From positions 1 to 59,513 of IMG/VR virus record IMGVR_UViG_3300027851_000002: 59,513 nt of DNA. The stretch is one strand, 5' to 3'. The notes under the pieces are model-generated. The model saw only the letters and a program-made list of their open reading frames with translations. It had not been told where the DNA came from and ran no database searches. This DNA comes from a virus. Lineage: Duplodnaviria > Caudoviricetes. Position numbers and translations under genes: made by a program. Below are positions 25,101-54,595 of this stretch, piece after piece. Numbering within the stretch: position 1 is the first letter of the stretch; each line of letters starts with the position of its first letter.

Positions 25101-28100
25101 CACGCGCTACCGCGCCGGATACCGCACAGCAAGATAGCCGTTCTGTAGATCAGGGACAAGAGAATACCCAGCCCGCGCAGACGCAACAGGAAGTTGTCAC
25201 GAAGCCGGAACCAGAACCTTCACCGGCAGCGGAGGGGCAGGACGCTCCTCTGGCCGACCAGAGTAAAAAAGAATCAGTCCGTCAAAAAATAGAGCTTTAT
25301 CCCTACGAAGAAGGAAAAATGTCTCCATCCGTAAAGGTAATGAATGAATCCATATCATTCGTTAATTCATTGACTGACGAGCAATATAAGTTTGTCGAAG
25401 AAATACTTGGAATGAACCCGAGAAATTTTATAGGGACACATAATGCTGAGCAAACCCTTAGAAATTTAAAAGAGATTGTTGATGAACACACCAAAAGAAC
25501 CAAAACTTTTGTTCATAACGGCGTAACCATATATCCGACAACCATAAACGGTAAAAATTATTGGGCAGTTCAACAGCCGGGTAACGCAGAAAAAGGTAGC
25601 GTTATGGGAGACACCCTTCACGAAATCCGTGAAGATGCTATCGAGCAGGCCGAACGTGACATCTCTCGCCGCAAAAATGATGCAGAGCGCGAAAGGGAAT
25701 TGCAGGCTGAAAAAGAAAAAGAGCAGGCTCGCAAAGATAAAAACCGTGGAAAATCTATCACGGAACGCAGAGCCGATGCAGTTCTCGATAAAGCCCACAA
25801 CTTCAACAATAAATCCGTTGCGGGCATGGGAAATACCCGCCGTGAGGTAATCCAATCAGCAATTGAGAAAGGCTGGCGCTTTGAAGAAGAAGCAGTAACT
25901 GATACCGCCGCAAAGAAGCGAGATCAGGATAAGATAGATCGTGCCCAAAAATCTGGATACATACTTGGCCTTAGCAACGAAAACATCCCAGCCGTAAAGG
26001 AAGCTCTGGAGGCGCGGGCACGTCTGAAAGATAATAAATACAGCAAGCCTGAATATGTGATGTATGTTGGCGACACAGACACATCATTTACCATTTCAAA
26101 GACAGAATATGATTATGCACAGTCTTTGACTTCACATCAGGCAGACACAACTCCGAAAGATCAGGGACAGGACGATGCCGTTCCGGAAGGTCTGAAAAAG
26201 ACATTTGAAATGCTTGATGAGGCCATATCTGAAAAGAGTGCCGCTGGCCTGCGAACGCTGCTTGGCAATCTCGAAAACAAGCGCACCCGCGCCAGATTTG
26301 AGGAAAAGACCGGTATCAAGCTGCCAAAGACCAAAGCTGGTACTTTGAAGGCAATCGATGATTTTGCAGGTGTATCTCAAGAGCAAAGAGAGTCTATCGA
26401 TTCAACAAGAAGTGACGATCAGAAAAAATCCGGGACCCAGCGCGAGCTGATACGACTTGGAAAGCGTTTGAGTGTCGGACTCATCAAAGATGCTGATGGA
26501 ATCGAACGTACACCAAAAGAATGGGTCGATAAGGCAATTAAAGATGGATATGACAACATCATACGTTCTGTTATAAACGGAAAAACAAAATATGCTTTGG
26601 TCAACGGAAAAGGTTCTGGTTACGAACTTGGAAAAATCAGAATTAAAAAACTAAACGGATTGGCTACTGAAATACGCCAGTACGTTCTTGCCGTTACTGG
26701 AAAGGATGTAATAGAAGCTGCTGACTTCAATGCAAAGATAAAGACCGTTCAGGAAGAAAAAAAACCTCAGCCTAAAAATACTTCTACCGCAGAACAAGAT
26801 GAAAAAATTGAGGATTTCGGAGAAAAGCTGGAAGGTGCAAAAAAAGACCTCTGGAAGGATTACAAAAAATCTTTCAGTGATGAGTTGCCGACCGACCTTT
26901 CTGAAATAACGCTGGCGAAACACTTCCCGGAACCAGACTATGCCAAGCTGATTGCCGATGGTGCCGAAGTGCGCGATCTGGCCGCTGTGAAGGCCATGCG
27001 GGATATTATCCCGCCGAAGCCGAGAAAGTCTTGGAAGCTTAAATCTTGGGCTGGTCAGGTTTCCTCATTGCGCGAGTTCACGGACGATATTTTGAATGGC
27101 CGCACCGAGGCCGATACCGTTGTAAAAATGATGCGCGAAACCAGCAGCGGGTTGGCGAAAATAGCCGACAACATAGATTTATATACCGAGCTGGGTTATC
27201 CGGCTTTCACGAAGGCGAAGGACTGGTCTGTGGGGTACGCTTCATATTCTATGTATGATGGCAAGAGGTACGACCCGCCAAAGAATATGTGGAGCCTGTC
27301 AAAAGGCCGATCATTTGGCCGTGCCTTTGATACCCGCGAGGAGGCCGTGAACAGCCTGCGCGGTACCCTGACTGCCGAGATCGAGGCGGGGCCGCAGAAA
27401 AGAAAAGTCACGCTTGATCTATTCAAGGATAACCGTACCGGTGATTTCTTCATCGGTAAGAAGATTGCCGCTGGGAAGATCATCCGTCTTAAAGAGGGCT
27501 TTAATTCCTCCAAAGAGGCGCGTGAGTACATGAAGGAAAACGAGAACGATCTGGTAGAGGATTTGGAAAAGCGCCGTAAAACCCGTTCGGAACGCAGGGA
27601 GTCGAATAATCCCCGTGTCGGACAGGATTACCGTGGTGCCGAAGATGCTACCCCAGAAAAGTTTGCCGCAGAGTTCGGATTCAGGGGTGTCCAGTTCGGG
27701 AACTATGTCGAGCAAGGCCGCCGCGCAATGGATTTGAACGATGCCTATGATGCGCTCATGGATATGTCTGCCATTGTCGGTATCCCTTCCCGTGCCGTAT
27801 CCCTGAACGGAACGCTTGGTCTGGCCTTTGGTGCGCGTGGTTCTGGTGGCATAAACCCAGCTGCGGCACATTATGAGTCGGACAATATCGTTATCAATAT
27901 GACCAAAGCATCAGGCGCAGGCAGTCTTGGTCACGAATGGTTTCATGCCATGGATCACTATTTTGGCAGCAAAAAGGGCGGTCTCTATCTGACAGAAAAT
28001 TACAAGTATTCCCCTGAGCTGCGCAAAGAAATATCCGAAGCCTTTGAGGGTGTCGTTTCTGCCATAGACAAAACCGGCATGGAGAAACGGTCAAAAGAGA

Positions 28101-31100
28101 TCGATAAGACCAGATCAAAGGATTACTGGTCAACGGTACGGGAAATGGGTGCGCGGGCGTTTGAGGCGTACCTTGTCCATAAGGCCGATGTTAAAAAAGA
28201 GTCGAACGACTATCTGGCCAACATTCTGGGCGAGGAGTCTTGGAATATCCTGTACGGCGAAAACCAGAACACATCGACATATCCGTATCCGACCAAGGCG
28301 GAGATGGAGAAATACATCGCGCCTGCTTTCGACAAGCTGTTTGAAACCATACAGACCGAAGAAACCGGCGATGGTGTTGCCATGTTCAGTCTTGGAAATG
28401 GCGCGGCGCAGCGTTTGCAGTCCAGTCTTATCAAGGCCGCAGATGGTCTAAAACAGGCCAAGGCCACCGGCGATCAGTACCTTGCCATGCTGCGTAAAAC
28501 CGCAGGGGTCAAAGAGGAAGAAATTGCTTGGACAGGTCTGGATGATTTCCTTGCCGGTCGTAAAGGTGTCACCAAAAAAGAGGTTGTTGACTATCTCAAC
28601 GACAATCAGGTTCAGGTCAATGAAGTGGTTCTTGGTCAAACAGACGATAATATCTATGGAATCCGTGACCCCAATACTGATGAAATAATTGAAACCGCAA
28701 CCTCTCGTCCAGAAGCCGAGCGCCGCCGTGATGCTCTTGAAGAAGAATTGGACAGAACGCTTTATGTGGAGGCTGTTTCTGGAACGGATGAACTGTCCGG
28801 TGAACAGGTAAGCGGTGAAACAAAATTCTCCAAATACACCCTTCCGGGCGGTGAGAACTACCGTGAGGTTTTGTTTACGCTTCCGACAGAAAATTACGAC
28901 AACATACAGGAACAACTTGGAGATTTTGAAAAATACCCTGCGGGCAGTCCAGAACGGGCGAAACTTCGTTCTAAGCAGGAGCAAGTACCGGACAGTTTCA
29001 AATCCTCCCACTTCGATCAGCCCAACATCATCGCCCATGTGCGCCTAAACGACCGAACCGATGCGGATGGAAATCGCGTCCTGTTCATCGAGGAGATTCA
29101 ATCCGACTGGCATCAGGCTGGGCGTAAGAAGGGGTATAAAAACGATACTACCGTTGACACGTCAGGATGGACGGCTGAAAAGACATACGATAATGGTGTC
29201 CGTATATGGATTATTAAAGATGCGAATGGGAATAAAGTACACTCGTACAATTTCTCCGATCAATCGCCTGAACAGGTTATAGAAAGAGCAGCTGAGGTTA
29301 AGCGCGGTCGAGAAAATATTACAGCCGTACCCGACGCGCCATTCAAAAAATCATGGCACGAGATGGCCTTCCGGCGCGTGGCACAGATGGCCGCGCAGGG
29401 CGGGTATGATCGCGTGGCATGGACACCGGGGCAGATTCAAAACGACAGATATGATCTAAGCCATCAGGTCAGTGAAATAAACGTGTTCAACCATGGCGAT
29501 GGTAAGAAATGGGATATAAGTGCCCGCACCAAAGGTGGAAACAGACTCAAGGATATTGCAACGGATATTCCGGCAGAAAAGCTTTCTGACTATATCGGCA
29601 AGGAGCTTGCAGAAAGAGCCGTAAAAGAGAAAACAGATCGTGGCTGGAAAAACTTTTCCGGTGTTGACCTGAAAGTCGGCGGCGAAGGCATGAAGGGTTT
29701 TTACGACAATATTCTTGTCAAATACGCCAACAAGTTCGGTAAGAAATATGGTTCTTCTTCCAGTACGGTTTTTCTAGAAAATCGTGGTGGAATCAGTGGC
29801 GAAGAAATCATGCGCTCAATGGGTAGAAATCCTGACGATTGGTCTGGATTCACACAGCCCGAGCGTGACGATATGATGCGTAGTTATAGAAAAAATGGGA
29901 TTAAGGTTTGGGGATTACAGATCACGGACGATATGCGCCGGTCGGCAGATGCCGGATTTGAGCTTTTCAGCCGCACCGGAGCCGTTGTTTCGCAGGAGCG
30001 CACCGCAGAGGCCATAAAACAGATCGAGGATGCCCTGAACGACCGTATGCGCACCTACGGCTATTCCACGGCAGATGTACGCCTGTTCAATGACGCACGG
30101 GAAACTGGTATCCCCGGAGTGCCGGACGATGTGCAGGGTGCATACTATCGCGGAATTATCCATATCTCTTTAAACGCCAAAGACCCGCTTGCGGTTCTTG
30201 ACCACGAGGCTATCCACGATCTCCGCGCCGCAGGAGCCTTCACAGAGGCAGAATGGCGGCTTCTGGAGGCCAAGGCACCCCAATGGCGGGATAAGTACGG
30301 AATAGATGCTCTGGACAGTTATGGAGGTCTGGGGCTATCCGAAACACGCCTTAACGAGGAGGCCATTGCCCATGCGTTTCAAGACGCTGAGGTAAGCGGC
30401 CCTGTCCGGCGCATTGCCAACCGTGTGCTGCGCTTCCTGAGAGAGATAAAAGCCTTCCTGACCGGAAACCCGTACCAGTTCAATTCGGTGGAGGAGATTT
30501 TCGATGCGGTGCGGCGTGGCGAGATTTCAAAGCGGAAGGATACGAAGCGTAGCACAGAAACCGATGAGATCACTTCTTCCACAGAAGGCATTAAAACCAA
30601 TACTGACGCTTTCAAAAAGTGGTTCGGTGATTCAAAGGTTGTCGATAAGAACGGCAAGCCATTGGTGGTTTATCATGGGACTGGATATGATCTTAAAACT
30701 ATCAAGCAGGTCAACACTAAAGCCAGCTTGAATGAGGGTATCTATTTTACTGACAGCCCTGTCACGGCATCCGCTTACGCCTATAGCGACAATGATATTC
30801 GGACACTAAAGGATAATAGGCCTATATTAAAGCGCATGATGTCCGGAAAGGTCGCCCCCAATGTTTATCCTGTATATCTTTCCATCAAGAATCCTTACAT
30901 AGATAATGGTTCGCCAACTCCAAGCCAGCGGAGTCTTAAAAAGCAGGGATATGACGGTATCATTAGGGAACGCGGTGGTGGTGAGACACACTATGTAGCC
31001 TTCGAGCCAACCCAGATAAAATCCGTTTTCAATCAGGGAACTTTTGACCCTGACAGTGAATTTATCATGTATAGCCTGCCAAAATCCCCCGCACCGGCGC

Positions 31101-33883
31101 TGAAACAGGCCAAGGAAACGCTGGCTACGATCAGGGGCGCGGGCACAAACCTCATGGCCGACCTTGGCCGTGTGTCAGCCATGGTTCTGCATCCGCACCA
31201 AATCGCCACCCTGTATAAGGAATTTACGCCGGTATATCGCGCCGTGATCGAGCGATTCAAGCAGCGGGAGGTTTTGATACACCAGCTTTCAAGACCGCTT
31301 GATTTCTATAACAGCCTTAACGATGCGGCGAAGAAGAAGGTTAATGCCGTTCTGGAGATCGGCAGGATCGATGGAAAGAACTATAAGCCTGACGATACCG
31401 GAAAAATCGTTGTCAAAAATGAAGGGTTGAAAAACACCGTCCATTCCAGAGATGGTCAAACCATCACGCTCACACCTGCCGAGGCCGCTGCCTATGCCGG
31501 TGTTCGGATGTCCATGGATATGGCTCTGGATAAATTCACGGAAACCATACTTGAGGAACACGGACTGCTGGAGAAGGGTGTTAAAACCGTTCAGGATGTC
31601 GAAAAGCTTCGCTTGAAGGCGCTCAAGGCCGGAGACTTCAACGAGGCCAAAAGATTCAAGGAAATACTATCCCGCCTGCATGACGTACAAGATGCCAAGA
31701 AGCGCGGCTATATCCCGTTCAAGCGGTGGGGCGAGATCGGTATTTCGGTACGCGACAACAACGATCTGGATGAAAACGGTCGTGGCAAGCTTGTCCACTT
31801 TGAAAGAGTGGAGCTTCCGGCCAAGCCGTTGAGAAAAGCCCGCATCGGGGAAAACAAGCCCGTTCAGGAAGCGCTGGACAGGCTGGGCGACAAGTACAAT
31901 GCCAAGCAGTACGACATAAACACATTTGAGATGTCAAAGTTCGATGAGGTAAATGCAAATCTTGATCTGAGAAGTCTTGACGTTTTGGCCGCGAGCAGTG
32001 ATATGTCCAGCGCAGATTATGACCGCCTGCGTGAAACACTTGAACGTGAGATGCAGAAAAAAGGGTTCAGGGCGCATTTCTTCCGTTCCAATGATGTACC
32101 CGGATACTCGGAAGATTTCGAGCGGGCGATAAACGATTATGTTGTTTCGATTTCGTCTTACATAAGCAGAAGGCTGAACGAGCGAAAAATTGAGGCGCGG
32201 GTATCGGAGGTTTCCAGTGCTGGGAAGTCCGGCCTTTACGAATATGCCAGAGATTATCAGGGGTATGTAAATAACCCAGAGGAAGAACTGGCAACGATAC
32301 GCATGATGGGCTTTTTCTGGTATCTGGCCGGTAACGTATCGTCTGGCATGGTCAACCTGTCACAGCCATTTCTGGTAACGGCTCCATGGCTTAAATCCAT
32401 GTTCAGCCACAGAATGATCGGTAAGGAAATGACGCGGGCGTATGCCGATGTTCTCAAAATGGTTGATGTCAACCTTGCCGACCGTGATTTCTTTAATTTC
32501 GACAAAGCACCGGCTGATGTCAGGCAGGCGCTGAAAGATGCCTATGCCGAGGGTGATTTTATCTCGATGTCCACAAACGATGCCATGGCGATAAGCAATT
32601 CGTCCTCTCAGGCGCTGCGCGGGCTGGAAAAGAATAAACGCAAGGCCGCTGATGCCATTTCTCTGACGTTCTCTATACCGGAGCGTATCAACCGTATCGC
32701 TACTTTCATAGCGGCATACCGCTTGGCCAATCCGGATGTTATGACCCCTGCTATGCAGAAGAAGATTGATGATTTTATTCGCGCCGATGAGCTGGCAAAG
32801 TCCATGATGTCCGGAAAAAATACCCAACGGGAAAAGGCTTTCGCCTTTGCAGAATATGCCGTTGTTTCGACACAGTACCGAGTTGGCAAGCTGAACCGTC
32901 CGAAGATGGCCAGAGGGTTTGGATCTCTGGTATTCCAGTTCTACTCTTTCGTCATGCAGACATTCGAGCTTATGTATAAGCTGAACAAGACGCATGGTTC
33001 CGAGGGCAAGAAAGCTCTGGCGGTTATGATACTGTCTATCGTTGCCGTGGCAGGCCTGAAAGGGCTTCCATTCGAGGATGATATGCAGGATTTGGTAGAG
33101 GCTCTGTATAAGCTCGCCACGGGCACAGAAATGGATGTCGATGCCAAGGCCAGAGAGCTTATCGTTGAATATACCGGCTCCCCCCTGATAGCAGAGATGA
33201 TTATCAAGGGCGTACCGGCAGCAATGATGAATCTCGACCTGTCCGGCAGGCTTGGTTTTGGTAGCATCGCTCCGGACTCCGGCAGTGACTTCCTTGGCAT
33301 CTGGTGGGATATGCTGTACGAGAGACCCGTTCAGGCCGGAAAGTATGTGAGCGAGGGGCAATACCTAAAAGCTGCCGCAGAGGTCTCCCCAGCCTTCCTG
33401 CGCAACCCCTTACAGGCATACATCTGGTCTGAGGACGGTATCCGGACAAGATATGGCAACAAGGTCATAGATGCCGGTGACGTTTCCGAGGCAGACATTG
33501 CGCTCAAATTCCTTGGTTTCACCTCCGCCGATATAAGCCGGGAGCGTGAGCGGATATACGCAACAGATCGGGCTTCAAAAGCGGTCAATGTTCTGAGATC
33601 GAGATATTACAGCAAGCTGGCCAAGGCCTTTGCCGAAAGGAAAATGCTTTCCAGATCTGGCGATACCGATGGTGCGGCACAGGCCGCAGCAAAGATCAAG
33701 TCCATAAAACTGGAAATAAACCGCCACAATCAGGTCGCTCCTCTATATGAGCGTATCGATATAAATGAGGCATCCCTGAAACGTAAGGTGGCGGAAGAAC
33801 TGTCCGGTGCCGAGGCGAAGCGTATCCGGAAACAGGCGCGTCCAAGAGCCAAAGAGCTGAAAGAAATATACGACATTGACTGA
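22175..33883 (+). CDS. Giant polyvalent internal virion protein (3902 aa)
   Basis: InPase-like (~24200-24660), LPD5-like 'IEDFGEKLEGAKKD' (~26800), LPD1 with HEWFH (~27600-28370), 'IEEIQSDWHQ' domain (~28400-29990), HEAIH peptidase (~30200), ART 'YHGT..GIYFT..GYDG' (~30600-31070), PLxRFG-like 'YIPFKRWG' plus helical C-terminus. Confidence 0.9.
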   Translation: MAIRRLGDQEEVVLDQKQAPAVSTNQPASTLRKLAPGEEITLDSERSELTPRATSPIYYPKAEEDPSLLGHLKAGAVDAGRRFYGMQANVLDTLAQKADRAEYAAQKAYYDIFGYPEPDPNAVDTLSVPEGNVVSEGLRQTADEIFRKERNLAGINQAANVVDTVEWDEINPFEQEISDIEPGKVGRFVLEQGARSLPEMAIAFVPVTGLPSITATTAQNILEERQINQGRSATDLPASEDMSTALATGVVSAGLERLGVLGDVASDFGGTAARVSSASQLPTAMLKSGAGEAATEFVQEGTEYVGSTLGTDKEVTGREFVESGMQGSLVGGPTGAAVRGGTEAVGLLGSKSGAEIIDDGQSQQNMGSEQAGPDGAAETVQTEPAAAPEQAQEAMVQENQRIAAQVDAPVGRDDLAEAIANNTPLPEKRTIDLPDVPIAPELQAQGFQVGGQAQQVNEDGEVIEGTVASAEMIDGELEVTVVDPAGNLRTLFAGDGQIAAVPLTPPAAAVALPNQQAVVTDQTLQSKANSIDDLRDGLGSIGSAIGDSFVQGFYDTLSGGPNKSSAFRNERQFKAAQEAFKRGEIRDAQDLRRFLETGSSGFVPAKPAPAKAKPENPYTAMGIDDLKSSMEYIKNQVKGGGGWNKMLTDNNRKIRAELDSRFPGWDTPEKVEAAAQEALPEPTEAQKEAGNYKKGHVSIQGLPVSIEIAKGGKRRGKSGDGTEWETDMPAHYGYIKRTKGADGEQVDVYVGDNPEAENVYVVDQIYSGGAFDEHKAMIGFPSQEAATAAYQAAFSDGSGAGRMGAVTAMPMAEFKNWLKTGNNRKPVAYKMPDFEPAGDALARRVVGSVFDTLNNDQQSDVVRMVIHARDTQKAGSIDMLAMRIVQSLNLASQLKDMGDGARIGNMVTRALNISRKFSNLLSKDRAAKPTESLKKAMDKLFEEVEAADAYIKKNTEKPAQDESPAEPKTVAEEPEPRATAPDTAQQDSRSVDQGQENTQPAQTQQEVVTKPEPEPSPAAEGQDAPLADQSKKESVRQKIELYPYEEGKMSPSVKVMNESISFVNSLTDEQYKFVEEILGMNPRNFIGTHNAEQTLRNLKEIVDEHTKRTKTFVHNGVTIYPTTINGKNYWAVQQPGNAEKGSVMGDTLHEIREDAIEQAERDISRRKNDAERERELQAEKEKEQARKDKNRGKSITERRADAVLDKAHNFNNKSVAGMGNTRREVIQSAIEKGWRFEEEAVTDTAAKKRDQDKIDRAQKSGYILGLSNENIPAVKEALEARARLKDNKYSKPEYVMYVGDTDTSFTISKTEYDYAQSLTSHQADTTPKDQGQDDAVPEGLKKTFEMLDEAISEKSAAGLRTLLGNLENKRTRARFEEKTGIKLPKTKAGTLKAIDDFAGVSQEQRESIDSTRSDDQKKSGTQRELIRLGKRLSVGLIKDADGIERTPKEWVDKAIKDGYDNIIRSVINGKTKYALVNGKGSGYELGKIRIKKLNGLATEIRQYVLAVTGKDVIEAADFNAKIKTVQEEKKPQPKNTSTAEQDEKIEDFGEKLEGAKKDLWKDYKKSFSDELPTDLSEITLAKHFPEPDYAKLIADGAEVRDLAAVKAMRDIIPPKPRKSWKLKSWAGQVSSLREFTDDILNGRTEADTVVKMMRETSSGLAKIADNIDLYTELGYPAFTKAKDWSVGYASYSMYDGKRYDPPKNMWSLSKGRSFGRAFDTREEAVNSLRGTLTAEIEAGPQKRKVTLDLFKDNRTGDFFIGKKIAAGKIIRLKEGFNSSKEAREYMKENENDLVEDLEKRRKTRSERRESNNPRVGQDYRGAEDATPEKFAAEFGFRGVQFGNYVEQGRRAMDLNDAYDALMDMSAIVGIPSRAVSLNGTLGLAFGARGSGGINPAAAHYESDNIVINMTKASGAGSLGHEWFHAMDHYFGSKKGGLYLTENYKYSPELRKEISEAFEGVVSAIDKTGMEKRSKEIDKTRSKDYWSTVREMGARAFEAYLVHKADVKKESNDYLANILGEESWNILYGENQNTSTYPYPTKAEMEKYIAPAFDKLFETIQTEETGDGVAMFSLGNGAAQRLQSSLIKAADGLKQAKATGDQYLAMLRKTAGVKEEEIAWTGLDDFLAGRKGVTKKEVVDYLNDNQVQVNEVVLGQTDDNIYGIRDPNTDEIIETATSRPEAERRRDALEEELDRTLYVEAVSGTDELSGEQVSGETKFSKYTLPGGENYREVLFTLPTENYDNIQEQLGDFEKYPAGSPERAKLRSKQEQVPDSFKSSHFDQPNIIAHVRLNDRTDADGNRVLFIEEIQSDWHQAGRKKGYKNDTTVDTSGWTAEKTYDNGVRIWIIKDANGNKVHSYNFSDQSPEQVIERAAEVKRGRENITAVPDAPFKKSWHEMAFRRVAQMAAQGGYDRVAWTPGQIQNDRYDLSHQVSEINVFNHGDGKKWDISARTKGGNRLKDIATDIPAEKLSDYIGKELAERAVKEKTDRGWKNFSGVDLKVGGEGMKGFYDNILVKYANKFGKKYGSSSSTVFLENRGGISGEEIMRSMGRNPDDWSGFTQPERDDMMRSYRKNGIKVWGLQITDDMRRSADAGFELFSRTGAVVSQERTAEAIKQIEDALNDRMRTYGYSTADVRLFNDARETGIPGVPDDVQGAYYRGIIHISLNAKDPLAVLDHEAIHDLRAAGAFTEAEWRLLEAKAPQWRDKYGIDALDSYGGLGLSETRLNEEAIAHAFQDAEVSGPVRRIANRVLRFLREIKAFLTGNPYQFNSVEEIFDAVRRGEISKRKDTKRSTETDEITSSTEGIKTNTDAFKKWFGDSKVVDKNGKPLVVYHGTGYDLKTIKQVNTKASLNEGIYFTDSPVTASAYAYSDNDIRTLKDNRPILKRMMSGKVAPNVYPVYLSIKNPYIDNGSPTPSQRSLKKQGYDGIIRERGGGETHYVAFEPTQIKSVFNQGTFDPDSEFIMYSLPKSPAPALKQAKETLATIRGAGTNLMADLGRVSAMVLHPHQIATLYKEFTPVYRAVIERFKQREVLIHQLSRPLDFYNSLNDAAKKKVNAVLEIGRIDGKNYKPDDTGKIVVKNEGLKNTVHSRDGQTITLTPAEAAAYAGVRMSMDMALDKFTETILEEHGLLEKGVKTVQDVEKLRLKALKAGDFNEAKRFKEILSRLHDVQDAKKRGYIPFKRWGEIGISVRDNNDLDENGRGKLVHFERVELPAKPLRKARIGENKPVQEALDRLGDKYNAKQYDINTFEMSKFDEVNANLDLRSLDVLAASSDMSSADYDRLRETLEREMQKKGFRAHFFRSNDVPGYSEDFERAINDYVVSISSYISRRLNERKIEARVSEVSSAGKSGLYEYARDYQGYVNNPEEELATIRMMGFFWYLAGNVSSGMVNLSQPFLVTAPWLKSMFSHRMIGKEMTRAYADVLKMVDVNLADRDFFNFDKAPADVRQALKDAYAEGDFISMSTNDAMAISNSSSQALRGLEKNKRKAADAISLTFSIPERINRIATFIAAYRLANPDVMTPAMQKKIDDFIRADELAKSMMSGKNTQREKAFAFAEYAVVSTQYRVGKLNRPKMARGFGSLVFQFYSFVMQTFELMYKLNKTHGSEGKKALAVMILSIVAVAGLKGLPFEDDMQDLVEALYKLATGTEMDVDAKARELIVEYTGSPLIAEMIIKGVPAAMMNLDLSGRLGFGSIAPDSGSDFLGIWWDMLYERPVQAGKYVSEGQYLKAAAEVSPAFLRNPLQAYIWSEDGIRTRYGNKVIDAGDVSEADIALKFLGFTSADISRERERIYATDRASKAVNVLRSRYYSKLAKAFAERKMLSRSGDTDGAAQAAAKIKSIKLEINRHNQVAPLYERIDINEASLKRKVAEELSGAEAKRIRKQARPRAKELKEIYDID

Positions 33884-35267: not shown

Positions 35268-35568
35268 TTTTTGTCTCCTTCTCAACGTATCTGCCGCGAA
35301 CCTCATGGTCGCAGTTTTTGCAGCGTTTCCAGTCAGGCCATATATCGTTAGCCGAACTACAAACCTTTTCCATTTCGTGCTGCTCTCCGTTCAGGCAATC
35401 GGCTTTTTCTGGCGAATAATGGAAGATTATTGATGTTGTGAAGACAAAGGTCTTTCCACAGTCTCCACAGTCCATTTCATGACGCTTATCTTCTGCATAT
35501 CCAAAGCCATCGTCATGACAGACCTCTAACTCGGCATCACAGTAAGGGCAGTTTATATCGTGCGACAT
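35254..35568 (-). CDS. Zinc-ribbon protein
   Basis: 'INCPYC...CGDCGK.F...ADCLNG..H'; TGATG coupling. Confidence 0.7.
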   Translation of the reverse strand: MSHDINCPYCDAELEVCHDDGFGYAEDKRHEMDCGDCGKTFVFTTSIIFHYSPEKADCLNGEQHEMEKVCSSANDIWPDWKRCKNCDHEVRGRYVEKETKNDRP

Positions 35569-36608
35569 CACCCCTCCTTCCCGCCGAGCAGGGCGAGGGC
35601 TTCTAAAACGCAATTTTCAAGAACAACACTGTTTTCCATTCTTGCTTTTATTCCGCGCTTTAAAAGTTTAACCACCTTTTCCCTCTGATCTACGTAGTAT
35701 TCAAGACGCTTTCTCCAAATTAATATATCTGCTTCACCGTTAGTTTCGTTATCAACCACATCCCTCAGCACGGCGGGGGATTGAAGGGCGGATTTGAAAG
35801 CCTGACTGTTGAAAATATGGTCTGATACGTTTCCGGCCCACTTTCCTGCCGTGAACGATAGCGTACCGTTACCCCCGCGCCAGTCAAAATCACATGGGAA
35901 GCATCCAGTATCTCCGCACCAATTGCCCCATTCATGGTTCATGGCTTTCAGAACAATGTCTCTGAATTGGCCTTCATCTAAAGCCGCTTGTCTCGGCGCG
36001 TCCGTTGGCTGCGGCTGCGTGGCTACGGTAGCGGCAAGCAGCATCGGCTCTACGGTATTCCAATCGTCAGAATCCAGCAATTCGGCCAGATATTCACCAA
36101 GGCGCTTTAGAGGCTCTGGCGCATTGCCTATCGCGGCCTGAATAAAGTCTTCTGCCGTAACTTCTGGAATTTCCCATGCTTTATTAATCAATGTCTGCAA
36201 AGTATTTATTTGTTGCTCATAGTTATTACCTGTGGAACCGCTTGATTGAACCATGTCATAAAGAACATCTATCCATGAACGTGCATTTTCAACCGCTTCC
36301 CTCACATCATCCGGCAAAACAGGGGATGCGTCCGTTGGCTGCACCAACACAATTTTTTCCTTGATATGGTCTATCTCTTCTTGCGTAATAAGCCCTTCAT
36401 CAATCAGTTCTTGTTTGAACTCTGATAGTGGTTTTGTTGGCTGCACCGTGGCGGCGTTCCATGCGGCTTGCCATGATGTCCATTGCGCGGATGCGTTTTT
36501 ATCAAGATAGTTTCCTGCACCTGTCTTATGCTTCCGGTGCGAGTAATTATCATCTTCCGTGATAAATTTCTCAAACTGTTCGCGGCACTTATCGGGTTGG
36601 GTGGTCAT
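35568..36608 (-). CDS. Mosaic hypothetical protein A (paralogue of 51212..51742)
   Basis: Shares MTT.PD.CRE.FE / WNAATVQPT / QPTDA / ALQSPAV / EALALLGGKE boxes. Confidence 0.8.
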   Translation of the reverse strand: MTTQPDKCREQFEKFITEDDNYSHRKHKTGAGNYLDKNASAQWTSWQAAWNAATVQPTKPLSEFKQELIDEGLITQEEIDHIKEKIVLVQPTDASPVLPDDVREAVENARSWIDVLYDMVQSSGSTGNNYEQQINTLQTLINKAWEIPEVTAEDFIQAAIGNAPEPLKRLGEYLAELLDSDDWNTVEPMLLAATVATQPQPTDAPRQAALDEGQFRDIVLKAMNHEWGNWCGDTGCFPCDFDWRGGNGTLSFTAGKWAGNVSDHIFNSQAFKSALQSPAVLRDVVDNETNGEADILIWRKRLEYYVDQREKVVKLLKRGIKARMENSVVLENCVLEALALLGGKEG

Positions 36609-37042
36609 TTTGTGTTCTCCTTATTTTCTAATTTTCGTTTTCTATATCTTTTGTCAGCATCTAATCTACATACCCTGCATCCCCTATCCCCGTCTGGCCT
36701 GATATATAAATTATTGCCAGATAGTTCGTGTCCATGCCTGCAATGTGTTATCATTTTCTTTGCTCTGGAAATGTTCTCCAAGTTTGTTACGGCTTCTAAA
36801 TGATCTGGATTAACGCAATGCTTCACACGACATATATGGTCTATAGTTAATCCTTCTGGGATTTTCCCAATATAGTGTTCATATGACCATCTATGCGCTT
36901 TCATAGACTTAGAATCTGCTGATACCCAAAACTGACAATATCCGTCTTTATCTTTATATGAATTAGATAGCCAACATCCACATTCTGAAACAGTGTAGCT
37001 TTTTGAAAACCTCTCAAATATGCTTTGCTTTTTCCGTCCCAT
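36605..37042 (-). CDS. HNH endonuclease with C-terminal Zn finger
   Basis: 'AHRWSYE...IDHICR..CVNPDHLEAVT..EN' plus 'THCRHGH...CRVC'; AT-rich. Confidence 0.9.
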   Translation of the reverse strand: MGRKKQSIFERFSKSYTVSECGCWLSNSYKDKDGYCQFWVSADSKSMKAHRWSYEHYIGKIPEGLTIDHICRVKHCVNPDHLEAVTNLENISRAKKMITHCRHGHELSGNNLYIRPDGDRGCRVCRLDADKRYRKRKLENKENTK

Positions 37043-37043
37043 A

Positions 37044-37451
37044 TTAGTCCTTAATAATTTTCAATCCGTTGGGGTATTTTAAAGCGAGATAAGAGCCGAA
37101 ATCGCACTCATAATCGTCGTTGAAACGCCAATTTTTTATATGCTCTGATATATCTGTTGGTGTCACAACCTCCACCGCATCGGCTTTGCTGGCTTCGGGG
37201 GTGCGGGTGTTCCAGTACTCAGTCAGGACTTCACGCGCTCGCTGCAATCCTTTTTCGGCATAGCAATAATGGGGTTCCATGATGAAGGAAAAGCCAGAAT
37301 CGTTGTGCCTTTCTTCATAAGTGAAGTGGTCAGAAGCCTGTATGCTGTATGATATACCGCACTCGGAGCAAATAATCTCTGGCTGCGTCCCGTTCAAATC
37401 TAAATCAGCTTCACCCCCACAAAACGGGCACGGCTTTAATTCTGTTGTCAT
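37044..37451 (-). CDS. Lar-family restriction alleviation-like protein
   Basis: 'LKPCPFCGGEA...C..C...WNTR'. Confidence 0.75.
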   Translation of the reverse strand: MTTELKPCPFCGGEADLDLNGTQPEIICSECGISYSIQASDHFTYEERHNDSGFSFIMEPHYCYAEKGLQRAREVLTEYWNTRTPEASKADAVEVVTPTDISEHIKNWRFNDDYECDFGSYLALKYPNGLKIIKD

Positions 37452-38351: not shown

Positions 38352-38552
38352 CTAAATATAATCAACAACAATTTTACCACGGCCTGATAGGCGAACCTGA
38401 TTACCGTTTCTTACCCTTATCAACTCTCGATGTGGGAATTGAGATATAAGAGGCCATACGGTTTTAGAAACATTTCTCCATCCTTCTCCGACATCAGGGG
38501 AGCGAAGAAGAAGCTTTAAGAATGTTATGTCTTTAGGTGATAATTTTCCCAT
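38352..38552 (-). CDS. Small hypothetical protein
   Basis: Real start likely MGKLSPKD, just downstream of the tRNA-like RNA. Confidence 0.55.
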   Translation of the reverse strand: MGKLSPKDITFLKLLLRSPDVGEGWRNVSKTVWPLISQFPHRELIRVRNGNQVRLSGRGKIVVDYI

Positions 38553-38575
38553 TAGTATTTTCCTGTATTGATTGT

Positions 38576-38704
38576 TGGTAGGGTGGGGAGGAGTCGAACC
38601 TCCGGAACTTCCAGCGCTATCCATGGTCGCCGGTCATAATCCGCTTGCCTACCAGACTACATGCTTCCCGTTGCAACAGGTCGCGTTCATCTTGCGGCCA
38701 CCCC
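38576..38704 (-). ncRNA. tRNA-like RNA (129 nt) with expanded core
   Basis: Acceptor GGGGUGG/CCACCCU + A-CCA; T-arm GGAGG-UUCGACU-CCUCC; non-canonical interior. Confidence 0.75.
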
Positions 38705-38710
38705 ATAAGT

Positions 38711-38941
38711 TTATCCTGCTGTGTCTGAGCAGGTGTGGTCAGTAAGATCCTCAATGGATATTACTTCACTGAGAAAATCCACCGCCTTATCGTATGCTGA
38801 TCGCGCGTTGTTCTCCTCAACGTAAATCCTATGGAACTCATACCAGAAGAAAAGAAACTTTCTTTGAACTTCGTAGTAAGCGATGCCATAAGAGCTTCCT
38901 GATACAATCCGGTATTTATTTCTGTATTTATTCTTTGCCAT
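38711..38941 (-). CDS. Hypothetical protein
   Basis: 'KYRIV...YEVQRKFLFFW' phage family pattern. Confidence 0.6.
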   Translation of the reverse strand: MAKNKYRNKYRIVSGSSYGIAYYEVQRKFLFFWYEFHRIYVEENNARSAYDKAVDFLSEVISIEDLTDHTCSDTAG

Positions 38942-41599: not shown

Positions 41600-41875
41600 G
41601 TTGCTGTCTCTCCAGCTGTCAAGCACTTTAAACGCCATAGCTTGGGCGAACCACCGACATATCTGGGCCTTATTCGGCGGCTTACTTATACTCGCAGTTC
41701 CCGTGTCATAGGGTGACGGAGCCAAGCCCAGAGTAACTTCGGGGAGGTGAACTCAATCTTTGGACGCTCCCCACGCCCTCGACACTTCATGTCGGCTATC
41801 CTGATATTCCTACCAGTCTCTACCAGTTGTTAAATCACGTCCTCGGTATCAGCTGACGTTTCCCTTTCGGGAACT
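41600..41875 (-). ncRNA. Candidate structured RNA between the tRNA and the exonuclease gene
   Basis: Multiple hairpins (GAAA tetraloop), G.U pairs favouring the minus strand, possible pseudoknot. Confidence 0.55.
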
Positions 41876-41952
41876 TGGTGGTCGCAGAGGGATTTGAACC
41901 CCCGACCAGACCGTTATGAGCGGCCAGCTCTAACCAACTGAGCTATACGACC
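41876..41952 (-). tRNA. tRNA with CAU anticodon (Ile2/lysidine type more likely than Met)
   Basis: GGTCGTATAGCTCAGTTGGTTAGAGCTGGCCGCTCATAACGGTCTGGTCGGGGGTTCAAATCCCTCTGCGACCACCA; full cloverleaf with encoded CCA. Confidence 0.93.
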
Positions 41953-41972
41953 TGTAATTACCAATTTAGGTC

Positions 41973-41992
41973 ATTGACGATTAAAAGTCAAT
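41973..41992. promoter_or_regulatory. 20-bp palindromic operator/-35 element, copy 1 (tRNA promoter)
   Basis: ATTGACGATTAAAAGTCAAT; minus strand TTGACT-17-TAAATT. Confidence 0.65.
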
Positions 41993-53911: not shown

Positions 53912-54595
53912 CTAAAGGTTTTCGATCATGTTTTTGACGCTTTGTGCCTGATAGACCCGATCAGTGACTTCGGCTGCACCGGTTTTCTTGTTCTTCTCGA
54001 TCACACGGAACCCGGCTTTTGATAGCTCCTCACCAATTGTCCGGTATGCCATCCCATCGGATCTGAGCTTTTTGGCCAGATCAATGGCCTCCTGCGGCGG
54101 CGGGATTCTTCCCTCGGCTCGTTCCCCTTTTTCACGTTTGCGGGCGCGGGCATCGGACATTTTCTTGACCAATGACTTTTTCTCATACATCGAAACGGCG
54201 GCAACAATGATACGCAGCATTTCTGCGGTCGGGCTGTCCTCCAAAAAGTGCATAGGGGCATCAACAGGGATAAGGCTCAGACCGGATTCCTTGAGCTGGT
54301 CGTGCCCGATGAGCTGAACCAGAACTTCACGGGAGAATCTGTTTGCGGTCTCGACCAGAACGGTATCGATGCCGTGCTTCATACAGAAATTGAAAAGCTT
54401 GCTAAATTCAGGCCTGTCCATGACTGGCATGGTGCCGGATACGTTGCCATCATAGAACTCGGCCACAAGCTCTATCTTTTCCAGAAGGCAGAACTTTTTG
54501 ACCGCTTCTTTTTGGCGCGGCAGTGTATCTTTGTCCTCGCCAACACCGGATGCGGATGAGGTTCTGTAGTAAGCCACGGCGCGTTTTTTTTCCAT
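53912..54595 (-). CDS. Small serine recombinase (resolvase/invertase family)
   Basis: 'AVAYYRTSS' catalytic Ser, 'D..VSG....RP.F', 'RFSR', C-terminal HTH. Confidence 0.9.
   Translation of the reverse strand: MEKKRAVAYYRTSSASGVGEDKDTLPRQKEAVKKFCLLEKIELVAEFYDGNVSGTMPVMDRPEFSKLFNFCMKHGIDTVLVETANRFSREVLVQLIGHDQLKESGLSLIPVDAPMHFLEDSPTAEMLRIIVAAVSMYEKKSLVKKMSDARARKREKGERAEGRIPPPQEAIDLAKKLRSDGMAYRTIGEELSKAGFRVIEKNKKTGAAEVTDRVYQAQSVKNMIENL

What the first reader, a model, noticed from the sequence alone, without database searches (positions are those of the whole stretch)
38576..38704. 129-nt tRNA-like RNA with intact acceptor/T-arm/CCA but a greatly expanded core
Seen (minus strand): 7-bp acceptor GGGGUGG/CCACCCU, A73, CCA, and a perfect T-arm GGAGG-UUCGACU-CCUCC. 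The interior has a 3-bp D-like stem (CGC/GCG), hairpin CCUGU-UGCA-ACGGG with no 7-nt anticodon loop, and two extra hairpins (UGUAGUCUG/CGGAUUAUG; CCGGCG/CGCUGG). It fills a gap between genes exactly. Established: an acceptor plus T-arm is the determinant for RNase P, CCA enzyme and EF-Tu. Inference: a tRNA mimic, e.g. a decoy for anticodon nucleases, an mRNA processing signal, or a C4/Y-RNA-like regulator.
Basis: partly seen in the sequence, partly recalled or inferred. Interest (0 to 1): 0.75.

Follow-up and report, generated by a model that had tools for sequence, protein, structure and literature searches.

The report
Orphan oversized tRNA-like RNA in phage
A complete freshwater phage genome carries a 129-base gene whose two ends form the part of a transfer RNA that cell enzymes recognise, while its middle is not a transfer RNA; it is real, has no known relatives, and its role is unknown.

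Summary
On the minus strand, 38704→38576 has a 7-bp acceptor stem (six Watson-Crick pairs plus G1·U72), a perfect 5-bp T-stem with a canonical UUCGACU loop, A73 and an encoded CCA. This module occurred in 0 of 600 simulated windows. The 94-nt interior is not a tRNA core. ARAGORN and Rfam do not call it, and the tRNA model gives only 16 bits, for nt 47-126. "Remove an intron" rescues are no better than shuffled interiors. Only two interior hairpins are thermodynamically robust, and the whole fold is no more stable than shuffles. It fills one of two large gaps in a tightly packed early operon; the other gap holds a normal tRNA-Met. No homologue was found in any reachable collection, so covariation is untestable, and no RNA data exist. 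Best reading (about 0.45): a tRNA-derived, non-decoding RNA cut out of the polycistronic transcript by host RNase P and 3' trimming. That would give a stable small RNA like phage T4 RNA C and split the mRNA. A decaying tRNA gene is the main rival. It is not a tmRNA, a C4-type antisense RNA or a Y RNA.

The parts
38576..38704 (-). The 129-nt tRNA-like element (RNA nt 1 = 38704, nt 129 = 38576)
   Evidence: Sequence read. It is the only strict acceptor/T-arm/CCA module in the window, with 0 of 600 simulated windows showing one.
38698..38704 (-). Acceptor 5' strand GGGGUGG (nt 1-7), preceded by U at -1
   Evidence: Pair probabilities are 0.88-1.0 for pairs 1-6 and 0.25 for pair 7.
38580..38586 (-). 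Acceptor 3' strand CCACCCU (nt 119-125)
38576..38579 (-). Discriminator A73 and genome-encoded CCA (nt 126-129)
   Evidence: The phage's tRNA-Met also encodes CCA.
38587..38603 (-). T-arm GGAGG-UUCGACU-CCUCC (nt 102-118)
   Evidence: Pair probabilities are 0.80-0.92. This is the only part that Rfam tmRNA and tRNA models align to.
38667..38680 (-). Interior hairpin A, CCUGU-UGCA-ACGGG (nt 25-38); robust; no 7-nt loop
   Evidence: Pair probabilities are 0.85-1.0.
38611..38633 (-). Interior hairpin C, CCGGCG/CGCUGG with an 11-nt loop ACCAUGGAUAG (nt 72-94); robust
   Evidence: Pair probabilities are >=0.99.
38635..38661 (-).
   Evidence: Pair probability is about 0.11. It competes with pairings of nt 7-16 to nt 48-58 in the MFE.
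38682..38696 (-).
   Evidence: Pair probability is 0.01. Only one nucleotide (C8) separates it from the acceptor.
38579..38658 (-). Sub-threshold match to the Rfam tRNA model (nt 47-126); it uses AGUCUGG as a 5/7 acceptor strand
   Evidence: 16 bits against a gathering score of 29, E = 0.05 in this genome. ARAGORN gives the same parse only at lowered thresholds.
38711..38941 (-). Upstream 76-aa ORF; its stop codon lies 6 nt before the element
   Evidence: weak phrog_8363 match. No tblastn match in phages.
38352..38552 (-). Downstream 66-aa ORF of a conserved small-protein family; its ATG lies 23 nt after the CCA and is preceded by AGGA
   Evidence: 35% identity over residues 2-66 to a Sulfitobacter phage protein; 104 representatives at E<=1e-3, aligning from residue 1-3..
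41876..41952 (-). Canonical tRNA-Met(CAU) with encoded CCA, in the only other large gap of the same operon (context)
   Evidence: ARAGORN. Rfam 65.2 bits. A promoter-like TTGACT-17-TAAATT lies just upstream.

Best explanation
The element is a tRNA-derived but non-decoding RNA gene. It lies in the middle of a leftward early operon of small accessory genes and is transcribed as part of that operon.

Its two ends fold into the coaxial acceptor/T-arm helix with a canonical T-loop and a 3' ACCA. This is the module that bacterial RNase P measures and cuts.

Proposed steps:
- Host RNase P cuts between U(-1) and G1, at 38705/38704.
- Host 3' processing trims to the encoded CCA at 38576.
- This releases a roughly 129-nt stable RNA and, in the same act, separates the upstream and downstream cistrons.

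The 94-nt interior carries two stable hairpins plus a flexible region. It has no usable anticodon arm, so the RNA should not decode. Whatever it does beyond punctuating the mRNA is done as a tRNA-shaped small RNA, like the RNA C (species 1) of phage T4, whose role is also unknown.

Shown here: the module, its non-random nature, the non-tRNA interior, and its placement in the gap. Inferred: transcription, RNase P cleavage, stability and lack of decoding.
For: The module is intact and non-random:
- Searches show it in the sequence, and 0 of 600 simulated windows contain one.
- It is predicted to form with 0, 60 or 120 nt of flanking transcript.

The RNase P determinants are all present in the sequence. 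Passages of the RNase P review PMC11143913 state several relevant points. [quoted passage not shown] The 12-bp acceptor plus T helix acts as a measuring device. The 3' RCCA pairs with the P15 loop of the RNase P RNA. U-1 and G+1 matter. RNase P also processes phage RNAs and mRNAs.

Genomic placement:
- Genes from 36.6 to 43.5 kb are separated by -14 to +12 nt, except for two gaps.
- One gap (262 nt) holds tRNA-Met and the other (158 nt) holds this element.
- No promoter-like or terminator-like site flanks the element on its own strand, and such sites are not enriched over shuffles: 16 against 13.2 +/- 3.8 promoters, and 15 against 11.9 +/- 3.6 terminators.

The interior is not a tRNA core:
- ARAGORN gives no call at default settings, with introns allowed, or in tmRNA mode.
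- The Rfam tRNA model gives 16 bits against a cut-off of 29, and only with a different, mismatched acceptor strand.
- The acceptor, T-arm and CCA are perfect while the D and anticodon regions are unrecognisable. That pattern is what selection on the minihelix alone would give. This last point is inference.

Precedent:
- T4 rnaC (139 nt) contains the same kind of module, a 7-bp acceptor-like helix abutting a CCGGG-UUCGAAU-CCCGG T-arm with a 60-nt interior.
- Like this element, it reaches only sub-threshold tRNA-clan scores in Rfam (17.5 bits).
- Its role is stated as unknown in passages of PMC3014915 and PMC9697503.
Against: - There is no evidence of expression. No RNA run holds the phage, and the only two runs are DNA contigs.
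- No homologue was found, so there is no conservation or covariation to show selection.
- The whole fold is no more stable than shuffled sequence (z = -0.57).
- The nearest relatives by the neighbouring ATPase are L002 (82% identity) and L014 (65%). L014 has different small genes downstream. Both contigs end before the equivalent position. Neither carries the tRNA-Met (ARAGORN finds no tRNA in L002 or L014). So this region is variable and the element may be dispensable.
- G1.U72 replaces the usual G1-C72 on which RNase P A248 stacks (review passage). This could weaken or shift cleavage.
- The host is unknown.
Confidence: 0.45

Rival explanations
1. It is a dying or rearranged tRNA gene: a former phage tRNA whose core was wrecked by insertion, partial duplication or deletion. 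It is now neutral DNA that still happens to be cut out by tRNA-processing enzymes.
For: - Nucleotides 47-126 give a weak full-length match to the tRNA model (16 bits, E = 0.05). This stretch has U8-A9 and a D-loop-like AGCGGAUUA (ARAGORN at lowered threshold).
- Nucleotides 1-46 and 47-101 align weakly, which is compatible with a partial duplication of the 5' third (score 21; 69 of 2000 shuffles reach it).
- tRNA content at this locus varies among relatives. L002 and L014 have no tRNA. L080 has a normal tRNA-Tyr. L028 and L039 have aberrant tRNAs.
- No homologue is retained anywhere I could search.
Against: - Neutral decay should not spare all 12 stem pairs, the 7-nt T-loop consensus and ACCA while erasing the D and anticodon arms.
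- The 5' GGGGUGG strand is perfectly complementary while the internal 'old' strand AGUCUGG has two mismatches. This looks like maintenance of the outer helix.
- The duplication signal is marginal.
- Phage genomes are compact, and this gap is otherwise exceptional in the operon.
Confidence: 0.25
2. It is a tRNA mimic that works as a decoy or sponge. The tRNA-shaped but anticodon-less RNA would titrate a host factor that recognises the tRNA elbow and acceptor. Candidates are an anticodon nuclease or other tRNA-targeting defence, a modification or processing enzyme, or EF-Tu after charging.
For: - The element sits among small accessory genes that include a Lar-like restriction-alleviation protein at 37044-37451.
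- The phage carries a 3902-aa polyvalent protein with an ART domain, so it invests in counter-defence.
- A distant relative has, in the same position downstream of the ATPase, a good tRNA (Rfam 40 bits) whose anticodon loop is blocked by a 35-39-nt hairpin (L028).
- Another relative has a tRNA with a non-7-nt anticodon loop (L039).
Against: - The support is purely circumstantial. L028 and L039 are not homologous to this element in sequence.
- No defence system or target is identified, and the host is unknown.
- Known phage answers to tRNA nucleases that I am aware of use canonical or cleavage-resistant tRNAs and repair enzymes (review passages in PMC7824862; the rest is recalled). The phage has no RNA ligase and no CCA-adding enzyme.
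- An anticodon nuclease would need an anticodon loop to bind, and this RNA lacks one.
Confidence: 0.12
3. It is a working but structurally aberrant tRNA that decodes. It would carry an extra domain between the acceptor stem and the D-arm, or a very large variable region.
For: - Deleting nt 8-44/45 or 8-52/53 in silico gives sequences that ARAGORN calls at default settings: tRNA-Ile(UAU) with a canonical AUUAUGA loop, or tRNA-His.
Against: - The in-silico rescue is not significant. With the interior shuffled, 30 of 60 shuffles gave at least one ARAGORN call, and 15 of 60 gave 12 or more, matching the real sequence's 12.
- The proposed anticodon stems have only three good pairs.
- The alternative loops have 4, 9 or 11 nt.
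- The D-like region lacks G18G19 in the parse anchored on nt 1-7.
- The irregular allo-tRNA-like RNAs were reported as not aminoacylated by E. coli enzymes (same passages).
Confidence: 0.08
4. It is a miniature tmRNA-like or antisense (P1/P7 C4-like) regulator that uses the tRNA-like ends only for processing.
For: - The topology resembles a tmRNA tRNA-like domain: an acceptor, an unpaired linker, a body, then the T-arm with no variable loop, in one constrained fold.
- Weak Rfam tmRNA alignments cover the T-arm and ACCA.
- C4 RNA is listed as an RNase P substrate (passage).
Against: - The tmRNA hits score 12-14 bits against cut-offs of 47-84 and cover only the T-arm.
- ARAGORN tmRNA mode finds nothing.
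- The 3:70 pair is G-C, not the G.U needed for alanine charging (the identity rule is quoted in PMC7609411).
- Complementarity to the phage genome is at chance. For k = 10, 11 and 12, shuffled elements gave means of 13.3, 3.5 and 0.9 matches over both strands. On the minus strand the real element gave 15, 4 and 1. On the plus strand the counts are dominated by the element's own locus; at k = 10 I saw one match elsewhere (11609-11618), but only the first 30 rows were printed.
- The single 12-mer lies antisense to plus-strand genes.
Confidence: 0.04

Closest known systems
Phage T4 RNA C (species 1 RNA, rnaC; NC_000866 70908-71046)
   Same: - It is a phage-encoded RNA longer than a tRNA (139 nt against 129 nt).
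- It ends in a 7-bp acceptor-like helix that directly abuts a 5-bp T-stem with a UUCGAAU loop.
- It is not called as a tRNA and reaches only sub-threshold tRNA-clan scores in Rfam (17.5 bits against 16 bits here).
- Its function is unknown (passages in PMC3014915 and PMC9697503).
   Different: - There is no sequence or model-level homology. Model R1 found nothing in the T4 locus at E <= 10.
- T4 RNA C lies in a tRNA gene cluster and has a 46-nt 5' extension before its acceptor-like helix.
- Its interior is 60 nt and it has no encoded CCA.
- This element stands alone between protein genes, has a 94-nt interior and encodes CCA.
Canonical bacterial/phage tRNA (Rfam RF00005)
   Same: The acceptor stem of 7 bp, the T-arm of 5 bp with UUCGANN, the G53-C61 closing pair, A73 and CCA match a tRNA. 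The phage's own tRNA-Met shares the encoded CCA.
   Different: - The interior is 94 nt instead of about 41-55.
- There is no U8.
- There is no D-arm with G18G19 in register.
- There is no 5-bp stem with a 7-nt anticodon loop.
- The score is below the family cut-off.
Irregular allo-tRNA-like sequences of soil metagenomes (Mukai et al. 2017, as described in the review PMC7609411)
   Same: They are tRNA-like genes with extra loops between the acceptor and D stems or with five-stem junctions. They are not charged by E. coli enzymes and are of unknown role (passages).
   Different: They have 8/4 or 9/3 acceptor/T geometries and a recognisable anticodon. This element has the standard 7/5 geometry and no clear anticodon arm. 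I did not see their sequences, so homology is untested.
tmRNA tRNA-like domain
   Same: It has an acceptor plus T-arm plus ACCA enclosing a large non-tRNA body, and it is a substrate of RNase P.
   Different: - There is no G3.U70.
- No pseudoknots or tag reading frame were detected by ARAGORN.
- Rfam tmRNA models align only to the T-arm.
- At 129 nt it is far shorter than the tmRNAs I know of (recalled).
P1/P7 C4 antisense RNA and bacterial Y-RNA-like YrlA
   Same: They are small phage or bacterial RNAs whose maturation or shape borrows tRNA features.
   Different: No antisense target above chance was found in the phage. There is no Rfam hit and no Ro/TROVE gene in the phage.

Membership tests
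tRNA (RF00005) | 7-bp acceptor stem, discriminator, 3' CCA | tested here: met
   six Watson-Crick pairs plus G1.U72, A73, and CCA encoded.
tRNA (RF00005) | 5-bp T-stem with a UUCRANN loop abutting the acceptor 3' strand | tested here: met
tRNA (RF00005) | U8/N9 followed by a D-arm with G18G19 | tested here: not met
   After nt 1-7 come C8 and C9. The only nearby stem (nt 9-11/21-23) has pair probability 0.01 and a loop without GG. A D-like arm exists only in the alternative nt 47-126 parse.
tRNA (RF00005) | 5-bp anticodon stem with a 7-nt loop (U33, R37) | tested here: not met
   The robust hairpins have 4-nt and 11-nt loops. The one 7-nt AUUAUGA loop is closed by only three good pairs. Shuffled interiors give equally good ARAGORN calls.
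tRNA (RF00005) | Covariance-model score at or above the gathering score (29 bits) and detection by ARAGORN | tested here: not met
   16 bits. There is no ARAGORN call at default settings, with or without introns.
tmRNA | G3.U70 alanine identity pair | tested here: not met
   The 3:70 pair is G-C.
tmRNA | Match to a tmRNA model, and a tag reading frame with pseudoknots | tested here: not met
   tmRNA_permuted scores 13.7 against 47 bits and beta_tmRNA 12.2 against 84 bits, over the T-arm only. ARAGORN -m finds nothing even at a lowered threshold.
T4 RNA C (species 1) | Sequence or structure homology to T4 rnaC | tested here: not met
   Model R1 searched over the T4 locus L097 gave no match at E <= 10. 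Only the generic acceptor/T-arm architecture is shared.
P1/P7 C4-type antisense RNA | Loops complementary to a target in the phage's own transcripts | tested here: not met
   On the minus strand the real element has 15, 4 and 1 complementary 10-, 11- and 12-mers. Shuffled elements give means of 13.3, 3.5 and 0.9 over both strands. Plus-strand matches outside the element's own locus could not be counted from the printed rows.
Y RNA / YrlA | Ro (TROVE) protein partner and a Ro-binding stem | tested here: not met
   There is no TROVE domain in the phage and no Rfam match. A host Ro protein cannot be excluded because the host is unknown.
RNase P substrate (functional class, not a homology family) | 12-bp acceptor plus T helix, T-loop, G+1, U-1, 3' RCCA | tested here: met
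   All are present in the sequence. The rule is taken from passages of PMC11143913. Actual cleavage is not testable with these tools.

The most novel reading that the evidence does not exclude
Phages of this recombination-module lineage may carry a class of deliberately 'anticodon-less' tRNA look-alikes. Two candidates are this 129-nt RNA and the L028 tRNA whose anticodon loop is plugged by a hairpin. Host enzymes would mature them like tRNAs, but they would act as decoys or inhibitors of tRNA-directed host defences or enzymes. That would be a counter-defence made of RNA rather than protein.
Probability: 0.1. Interest if true: 0.75.

Novelty: new variant of a known kind. Interest (0 to 1): 0.4.

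Why it matters
Phage-encoded tRNA-shaped RNAs that are not tRNAs have been known since T4 RNA C. They remain unexplained after fifty years. This is a clean second, unrelated example: perfect RNase P/CCA determinants wrapped around a 94-nt non-tRNA core, alone between protein genes in a small complete genome. If it is expressed and processed, it gives a simple system for two questions. What do such RNAs do? Do phages use tRNA processing to punctuate operons?

It also shows that standard tRNA finders miss such genes. The same loci contained a Rfam-positive tRNA with a 35-39-nt anticodon-loop insertion that ARAGORN misses at default settings.

As it stands it is a singleton without expression or conservation data, so its weight is moderate.

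Tried and rejected
**Homologue searches, all negative**
- blastn of 1.3 kb against 50,697 phage records found no match. The 161-nt query hit 81 records, at most 25% covered in the 60 rows shown. Most of the rows shown overlie the T-arm/acceptor end of annotated tRNA genes, and some do not. Listed E-values range from 0.5 to 6.
- Exact and gapped patterns in IMG/VR gave 0, 0 and 0 hits. One 18-mer hit (L129) lies in ordinary sequence, apparently coding, without an acceptor or T-arm and is a chance match.
- blastn-short and nhmmer against 92 loci found nothing.
- Covariance model R1 searched over 99 sources (694,105 bases) and 26 sources (166,625 bases) found only ordinary tRNAs: L080 at 20.3 bits and the window's tRNA-Met at 14.2 bits.

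**Loci fetched through the neighbouring ATPase**
- I fetched 12 IMG/VR, 80 metagenome and 23 genome loci.
- The two close ones are cut off before the equivalent position: L002 inside the ATPase gene and L014 589 nt after it.
- A search with the 346-aa protein at 35568-36608 gave one 44-residue match only.
- Better relatives exist in the protein search: P0002 on a 61,465-bp contig, P0012 on 38,950 bp and P0017 on 27,291 bp. P0122 and P0123 are close homologues of the 66-aa neighbour.

**Sequencing runs**
Two DNA holders were listed. One may be the source sample. The other holds identical low-depth pieces. No variants and no RNA holder were listed.

**Interrupted-tRNA idea**
I tested all deletions of 20-69 nt within nt 8-101. 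By my count from the loop bounds that is 2,525 variants. Twelve of them gave ARAGORN calls. Shuffled interiors do as well: 30 of 60 gave at least one call and 15 of 60 gave 12 or more.

**Other leads that failed**
- Internal duplication is marginal (69 of 2000 shuffles).
- Antisense targets are at chance level.
- The downstream 66-aa protein family might be tRNA-linked, because its Sulfitobacter phage homologue abuts a 12-tRNA cluster. But 0 of 7 IMG/VR loci with a homologue have a tRNA or an R1 match within 1.5 kb.
- The phage encodes no Ro/TROVE, CCA-adding enzyme or RNA ligase.
- Promoter-like and terminator-like sites are not above chance.

**Literature**
Searches on phage tRNA-like RNAs, decoys for anticodon nucleases, rnaC/rnaD and non-canonical tRNAs turned up no description of an element like this. 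Supplements were not seen. The 8,495 IMG/VR candidate structured RNAs of PMC10690425 are listed only in its supplements, so I cannot exclude that this locus is among them.

Full report
**What the window is.** The window is a whole IMG/VR virus record of 59,513 bases with direct terminal repeats, rated complete. It comes from a freshwater metagenome. It encodes a terminase, portal, major head protein and tail proteins on the plus strand. It also encodes a 3902-aa polyvalent protein. A leftward block from about 34.4 to 43.8 kb holds a PD-(D/E)XK exonuclease, a Sak4-like ATPase, an HNH endonuclease, a Lar-like restriction-alleviation protein and many small ORFs. Elsewhere there are a replication-initiator-like protein, DNA methyltransferases and a serine recombinase. 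No cultured phage is close: the best ATPase matches are 29-33% identical.

**The observation.** I read 38704→38576 on the minus strand.
- GGGGUGG (nt 1-7) pairs with CCACCCU (nt 119-125), as six Watson-Crick pairs plus a G1·U72 wobble.
- GGAGG-UUCGACU-CCUCC (nt 102-118) abuts the acceptor 3' strand exactly as in a tRNA.
- A73 and CCA follow.

The T-loop has the U54-U55-C56-R57-A58 consensus, and the closing pair is G53-C61. I wrote a strict scan for this module: a 5-bp Watson-Crick T-stem, a TTCRANN loop, an adjacent 7-bp acceptor with at most one G·U, an interior of 30-160 nt, and N+CCA.
- It finds one hit in the window, this element.
- It finds 0 hits in 600 first-order Markov simulations of the window, against 8 when CCA is not required.
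- In 607,245 bases of other fetched loci, the version without CCA found 7 hits. Four are annotated T4 tRNAs and one is the L009 tRNA-Cys. The other two are a place inside T4 rnaC and L028 1345-1450.

So the module is real and tRNA-derived, not chance.

**The interior.** Standard detectors do not accept the element.
- ARAGORN calls only the tRNA-Met at 41876-41952.
- Rfam at gathering thresholds reports only that tRNA.
- Permissive Rfam scans of the region give only T-arm-level matches to tmRNA models, at 12-14 bits against cut-offs of 47-84.
- ARAGORN run locally finds nothing at default thresholds, with introns allowed, or in tmRNA mode. At lowered thresholds it proposes a degenerate tRNA from nt 47 to 129 that uses AGUCUGG as a 5/7 acceptor strand.
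- The Rfam tRNA model scored against the whole genome gives the same parse at 16 bits, E = 0.05, against a cut-off of 29.

I then asked whether the element is a tRNA with an insertion. Deleting every stretch of 20-69 nt within nt 8-101 gave 12 ARAGORN calls, for example tRNA-Ile(UAU) after removing nt 8-44/45. With the interior shuffled, 30 of 60 sequences also gave calls, and 15 of 60 gave at least 12. The perfect ends alone explain these calls.

Thermodynamically the whole RNA is unremarkable, with MFE -45.9 kcal/mol and z = -0.57. In the ensemble, with 0, 60 or 120 nt of flanking transcript, four features are stable: the acceptor, the T-arm, hairpin nt 25-38 and hairpin nt 72-94. With the acceptor and T-arm constrained, two kinds of fold lie within 0.3 kcal/mol. 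The unconstrained MFE is of the second kind. In one, a short helix (nt 17-20/97-100) encloses three hairpins. In the other, there is a cloverleaf-like four-way junction with two oversized arms. I cannot choose between them. A weak similarity between nt 1-46 and 47-101 (69 of 2000 shuffles reach its score) leaves a partial duplication possible but unproven.

**Setting.** Between 36.6 and 43.5 kb the minus-strand genes overlap or are separated by at most 12 nt, apart from two gaps. The 262-nt gap at 41726-41987 holds the tRNA-Met. The 158-nt gap at 38553-38710 holds this element. The element starts 6 nt after the stop codon of a 76-aa ORF. It ends 23 nt before the ATG of a 66-aa ORF that has an AGGA upstream.

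That ATG is the true start. A Sulfitobacter phage homologue aligns over residues 2-66, and 104 family representatives align from residues 1-3 onward. The 90-aa ORF that would begin inside the element is therefore an artefact.

No promoter-like or terminator-like site brackets the element on its strand, and such sites are not enriched in the region. So it is most simply part of the polycistronic transcript. By contrast, the tRNA-Met has a promoter-like TTGACT-17-TAAATT just upstream.

**Relatives.** I could not find a homologue.
- DNA searches of phage records, exact and gapped patterns in IMG/VR, and blastn, nhmmer and a covariance model built from the element were all negative, or hit only ordinary tRNAs or one chance 18-mer. 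These covered about 860 kb of fetched loci.
- The neighbouring ATPase has relatives at 60-71% identity in the protein search, mostly on assemblies I could not fetch.
- The two close loci I could fetch end too early, L002 inside the ATPase gene and L014 589 nt after it.
- None of the small ORFs between 37.0 and 39.5 kb has a match in the seven closest loci. The element therefore lies in a variable accessory region.
- The only sequencing runs that hold the phage are two DNA data sets with identical sequence.

Neither conservation, covariation nor expression can be assessed.

**How it most likely works.** The sequence has all the features that bacterial RNase P uses. According to passages of the review PMC11143913:
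- The 12-bp stack acts as a ruler.
- The 3' RCCA pairs with the P15 loop of the RNase P RNA.
- U-1 and G+1 matter.
- RNase P also processes phage RNAs and mRNAs.

I therefore propose that the transcript is cut between U-1 and G1 and trimmed to the encoded CCA. This would release a stable tRNA-shaped RNA of about 129 nt and split the operon message at that point.

Without an anticodon arm it should not decode. The perfect state of all 12 stem pairs, the T-loop and ACCA, next to an unrecognisable core, argues for selection on the module rather than uniform decay. With a single sequence this remains inference. The G1·U72 pair is unusual and could affect cleavage.

**Comparison with what is known.** The nearest analogue is T4 RNA C (species 1).
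- In the T4 record it is a 139-nt RNA.
- Its 3' 95 nt contain a 7-bp acceptor-like helix abutting a CCGGG-UUCGAAU-CCCGG T-arm around a 60-nt interior.
- Rfam gives it only 17.5 bits, to tRNA-Sec.
- Two papers state that the roles of RNA C and RNA D are unknown (passages).

There is no homology between the two. T4 RNA C lies in a tRNA cluster, has a 5' extension and lacks an encoded CCA. Irregular allo-tRNA-like sequences with an extra loop between the acceptor and D stems are described in PMC7609411 (passages), but they have 8/4 or 9/3 geometry.

The element is not:
- a tmRNA (G3-C70, no model match);
- a C4-type antisense RNA (complementarity at chance);
- a Y RNA (no Rfam hit, no TROVE gene).

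The phage encodes no CCA-adding enzyme or RNA ligase.

**A lead worth recording.** Three more distant relatives (43-45% ATPase identity) carry a tRNA-type gene on the same strand, about 450-800 nt downstream of the ATPase homologue.
- L080 has a normal tRNA-Tyr.
- L039 has a tRNA (Rfam 37.7 bits) with a non-7-nt anticodon loop.
- L028 has a good tRNA (Rfam 40 bits) with canonical acceptor, D and T arms, whose anticodon loop carries a 35-39-nt hairpin. ARAGORN sees it only in intron mode.

These are not homologous to the element. They do show that this neighbourhood tolerates, or favours, tRNA genes with disabled anticodon loops. This is the only hint towards the decoy idea.

**Verdict.** The general interpretation, a tRNA mimic or processing element, is partly supported. 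The specific functions are open. It is a new, so far unique, variant of the known but unexplained class of phage tRNA-like stable RNAs. Without expression or conservation data I rate its interest as moderate.

Noticed in passing
L028 1345-1450 (+): A 106-nt tRNA lies between two ORFs, 447 nt downstream of an ATPase homologue. It scores 40 bits on Rfam RF00005 and has canonical acceptor, D and T arms. A 35-39-nt hairpin sits in the anticodon loop and no CCA is encoded. ARAGORN misses it at default settings. In intron mode it calls Asn(GTT) or His(GTG), depending on where the 'intron' is placed.
   Followed up: partly
L039 6180-6251 (+): A tRNA (Rfam 37.7 bits) about 450 nt downstream of an ATPase homologue has an anticodon loop that is not 7 nt. 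ARAGORN reports tRNA-??? with a 4-letter anticodon.
   Followed up: no
window 22175-33883 (+): A 3902-aa polyvalent protein carries InPase, LPD5, LPD1 and ART-PolyVal domains (Pfam E-values from 6e-51 to 9e-17). It occupies a fifth of the genome.
   Followed up: partly
window 38352-38552 (-): A 66-aa protein belongs to an uncharacterised conserved family of about 65-70 aa, with an RSPD.GDGWR motif and 104 representatives at E <= 1e-3. It has no Pfam or PHROG match. Its homologue in Sulfitobacter phage phiCB2047-B abuts a 12-tRNA cluster. However, 0 of 7 IMG/VR loci with a homologue have a tRNA within 1.5 kb.
   Followed up: yes
L097 2907-3001 (-), inside T4 rnaC: T4 RNA C contains a 7-bp acceptor-like helix (CGGAACG/CGUUUCG) directly abutting a canonical T-arm, with a 60-nt interior and a 46-nt 5' extension. 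Rfam has no family for it; its best match is tRNA-Sec at 17.5 bits.
   Followed up: partly
window 41876-41991 (-): The phage tRNA-Met(CAU) has its own promoter-like TTGACT-17-TAAATT ending about 10 nt upstream. A GUUCCC-GAAA-GGGAAC hairpin follows right after the CCA. Neither L002 nor L014, the closest relatives, has a tRNA in the stretch that was fetched.
   Followed up: no
window 38668-38675 and 38620-38625 (-): Both robust interior hairpins carry palindromic sequences at or in their loops: GUUGCAAC and CCAUGG. This would allow loop-loop self-pairing. By my rough estimate a 6-nt palindrome in an 11-nt loop has a chance of about 0.09, so it may mean nothing.
   Followed up: no
window 36605-37451 (-) and 53912-54595 (-): An HNH endonuclease and a Lar-like restriction-alleviation protein lie 1.1-2 kb downstream of the element in the same operon. 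A serine recombinase (integrase/invertase type) suggests a temperate or invertible-segment lifestyle.
   Followed up: no
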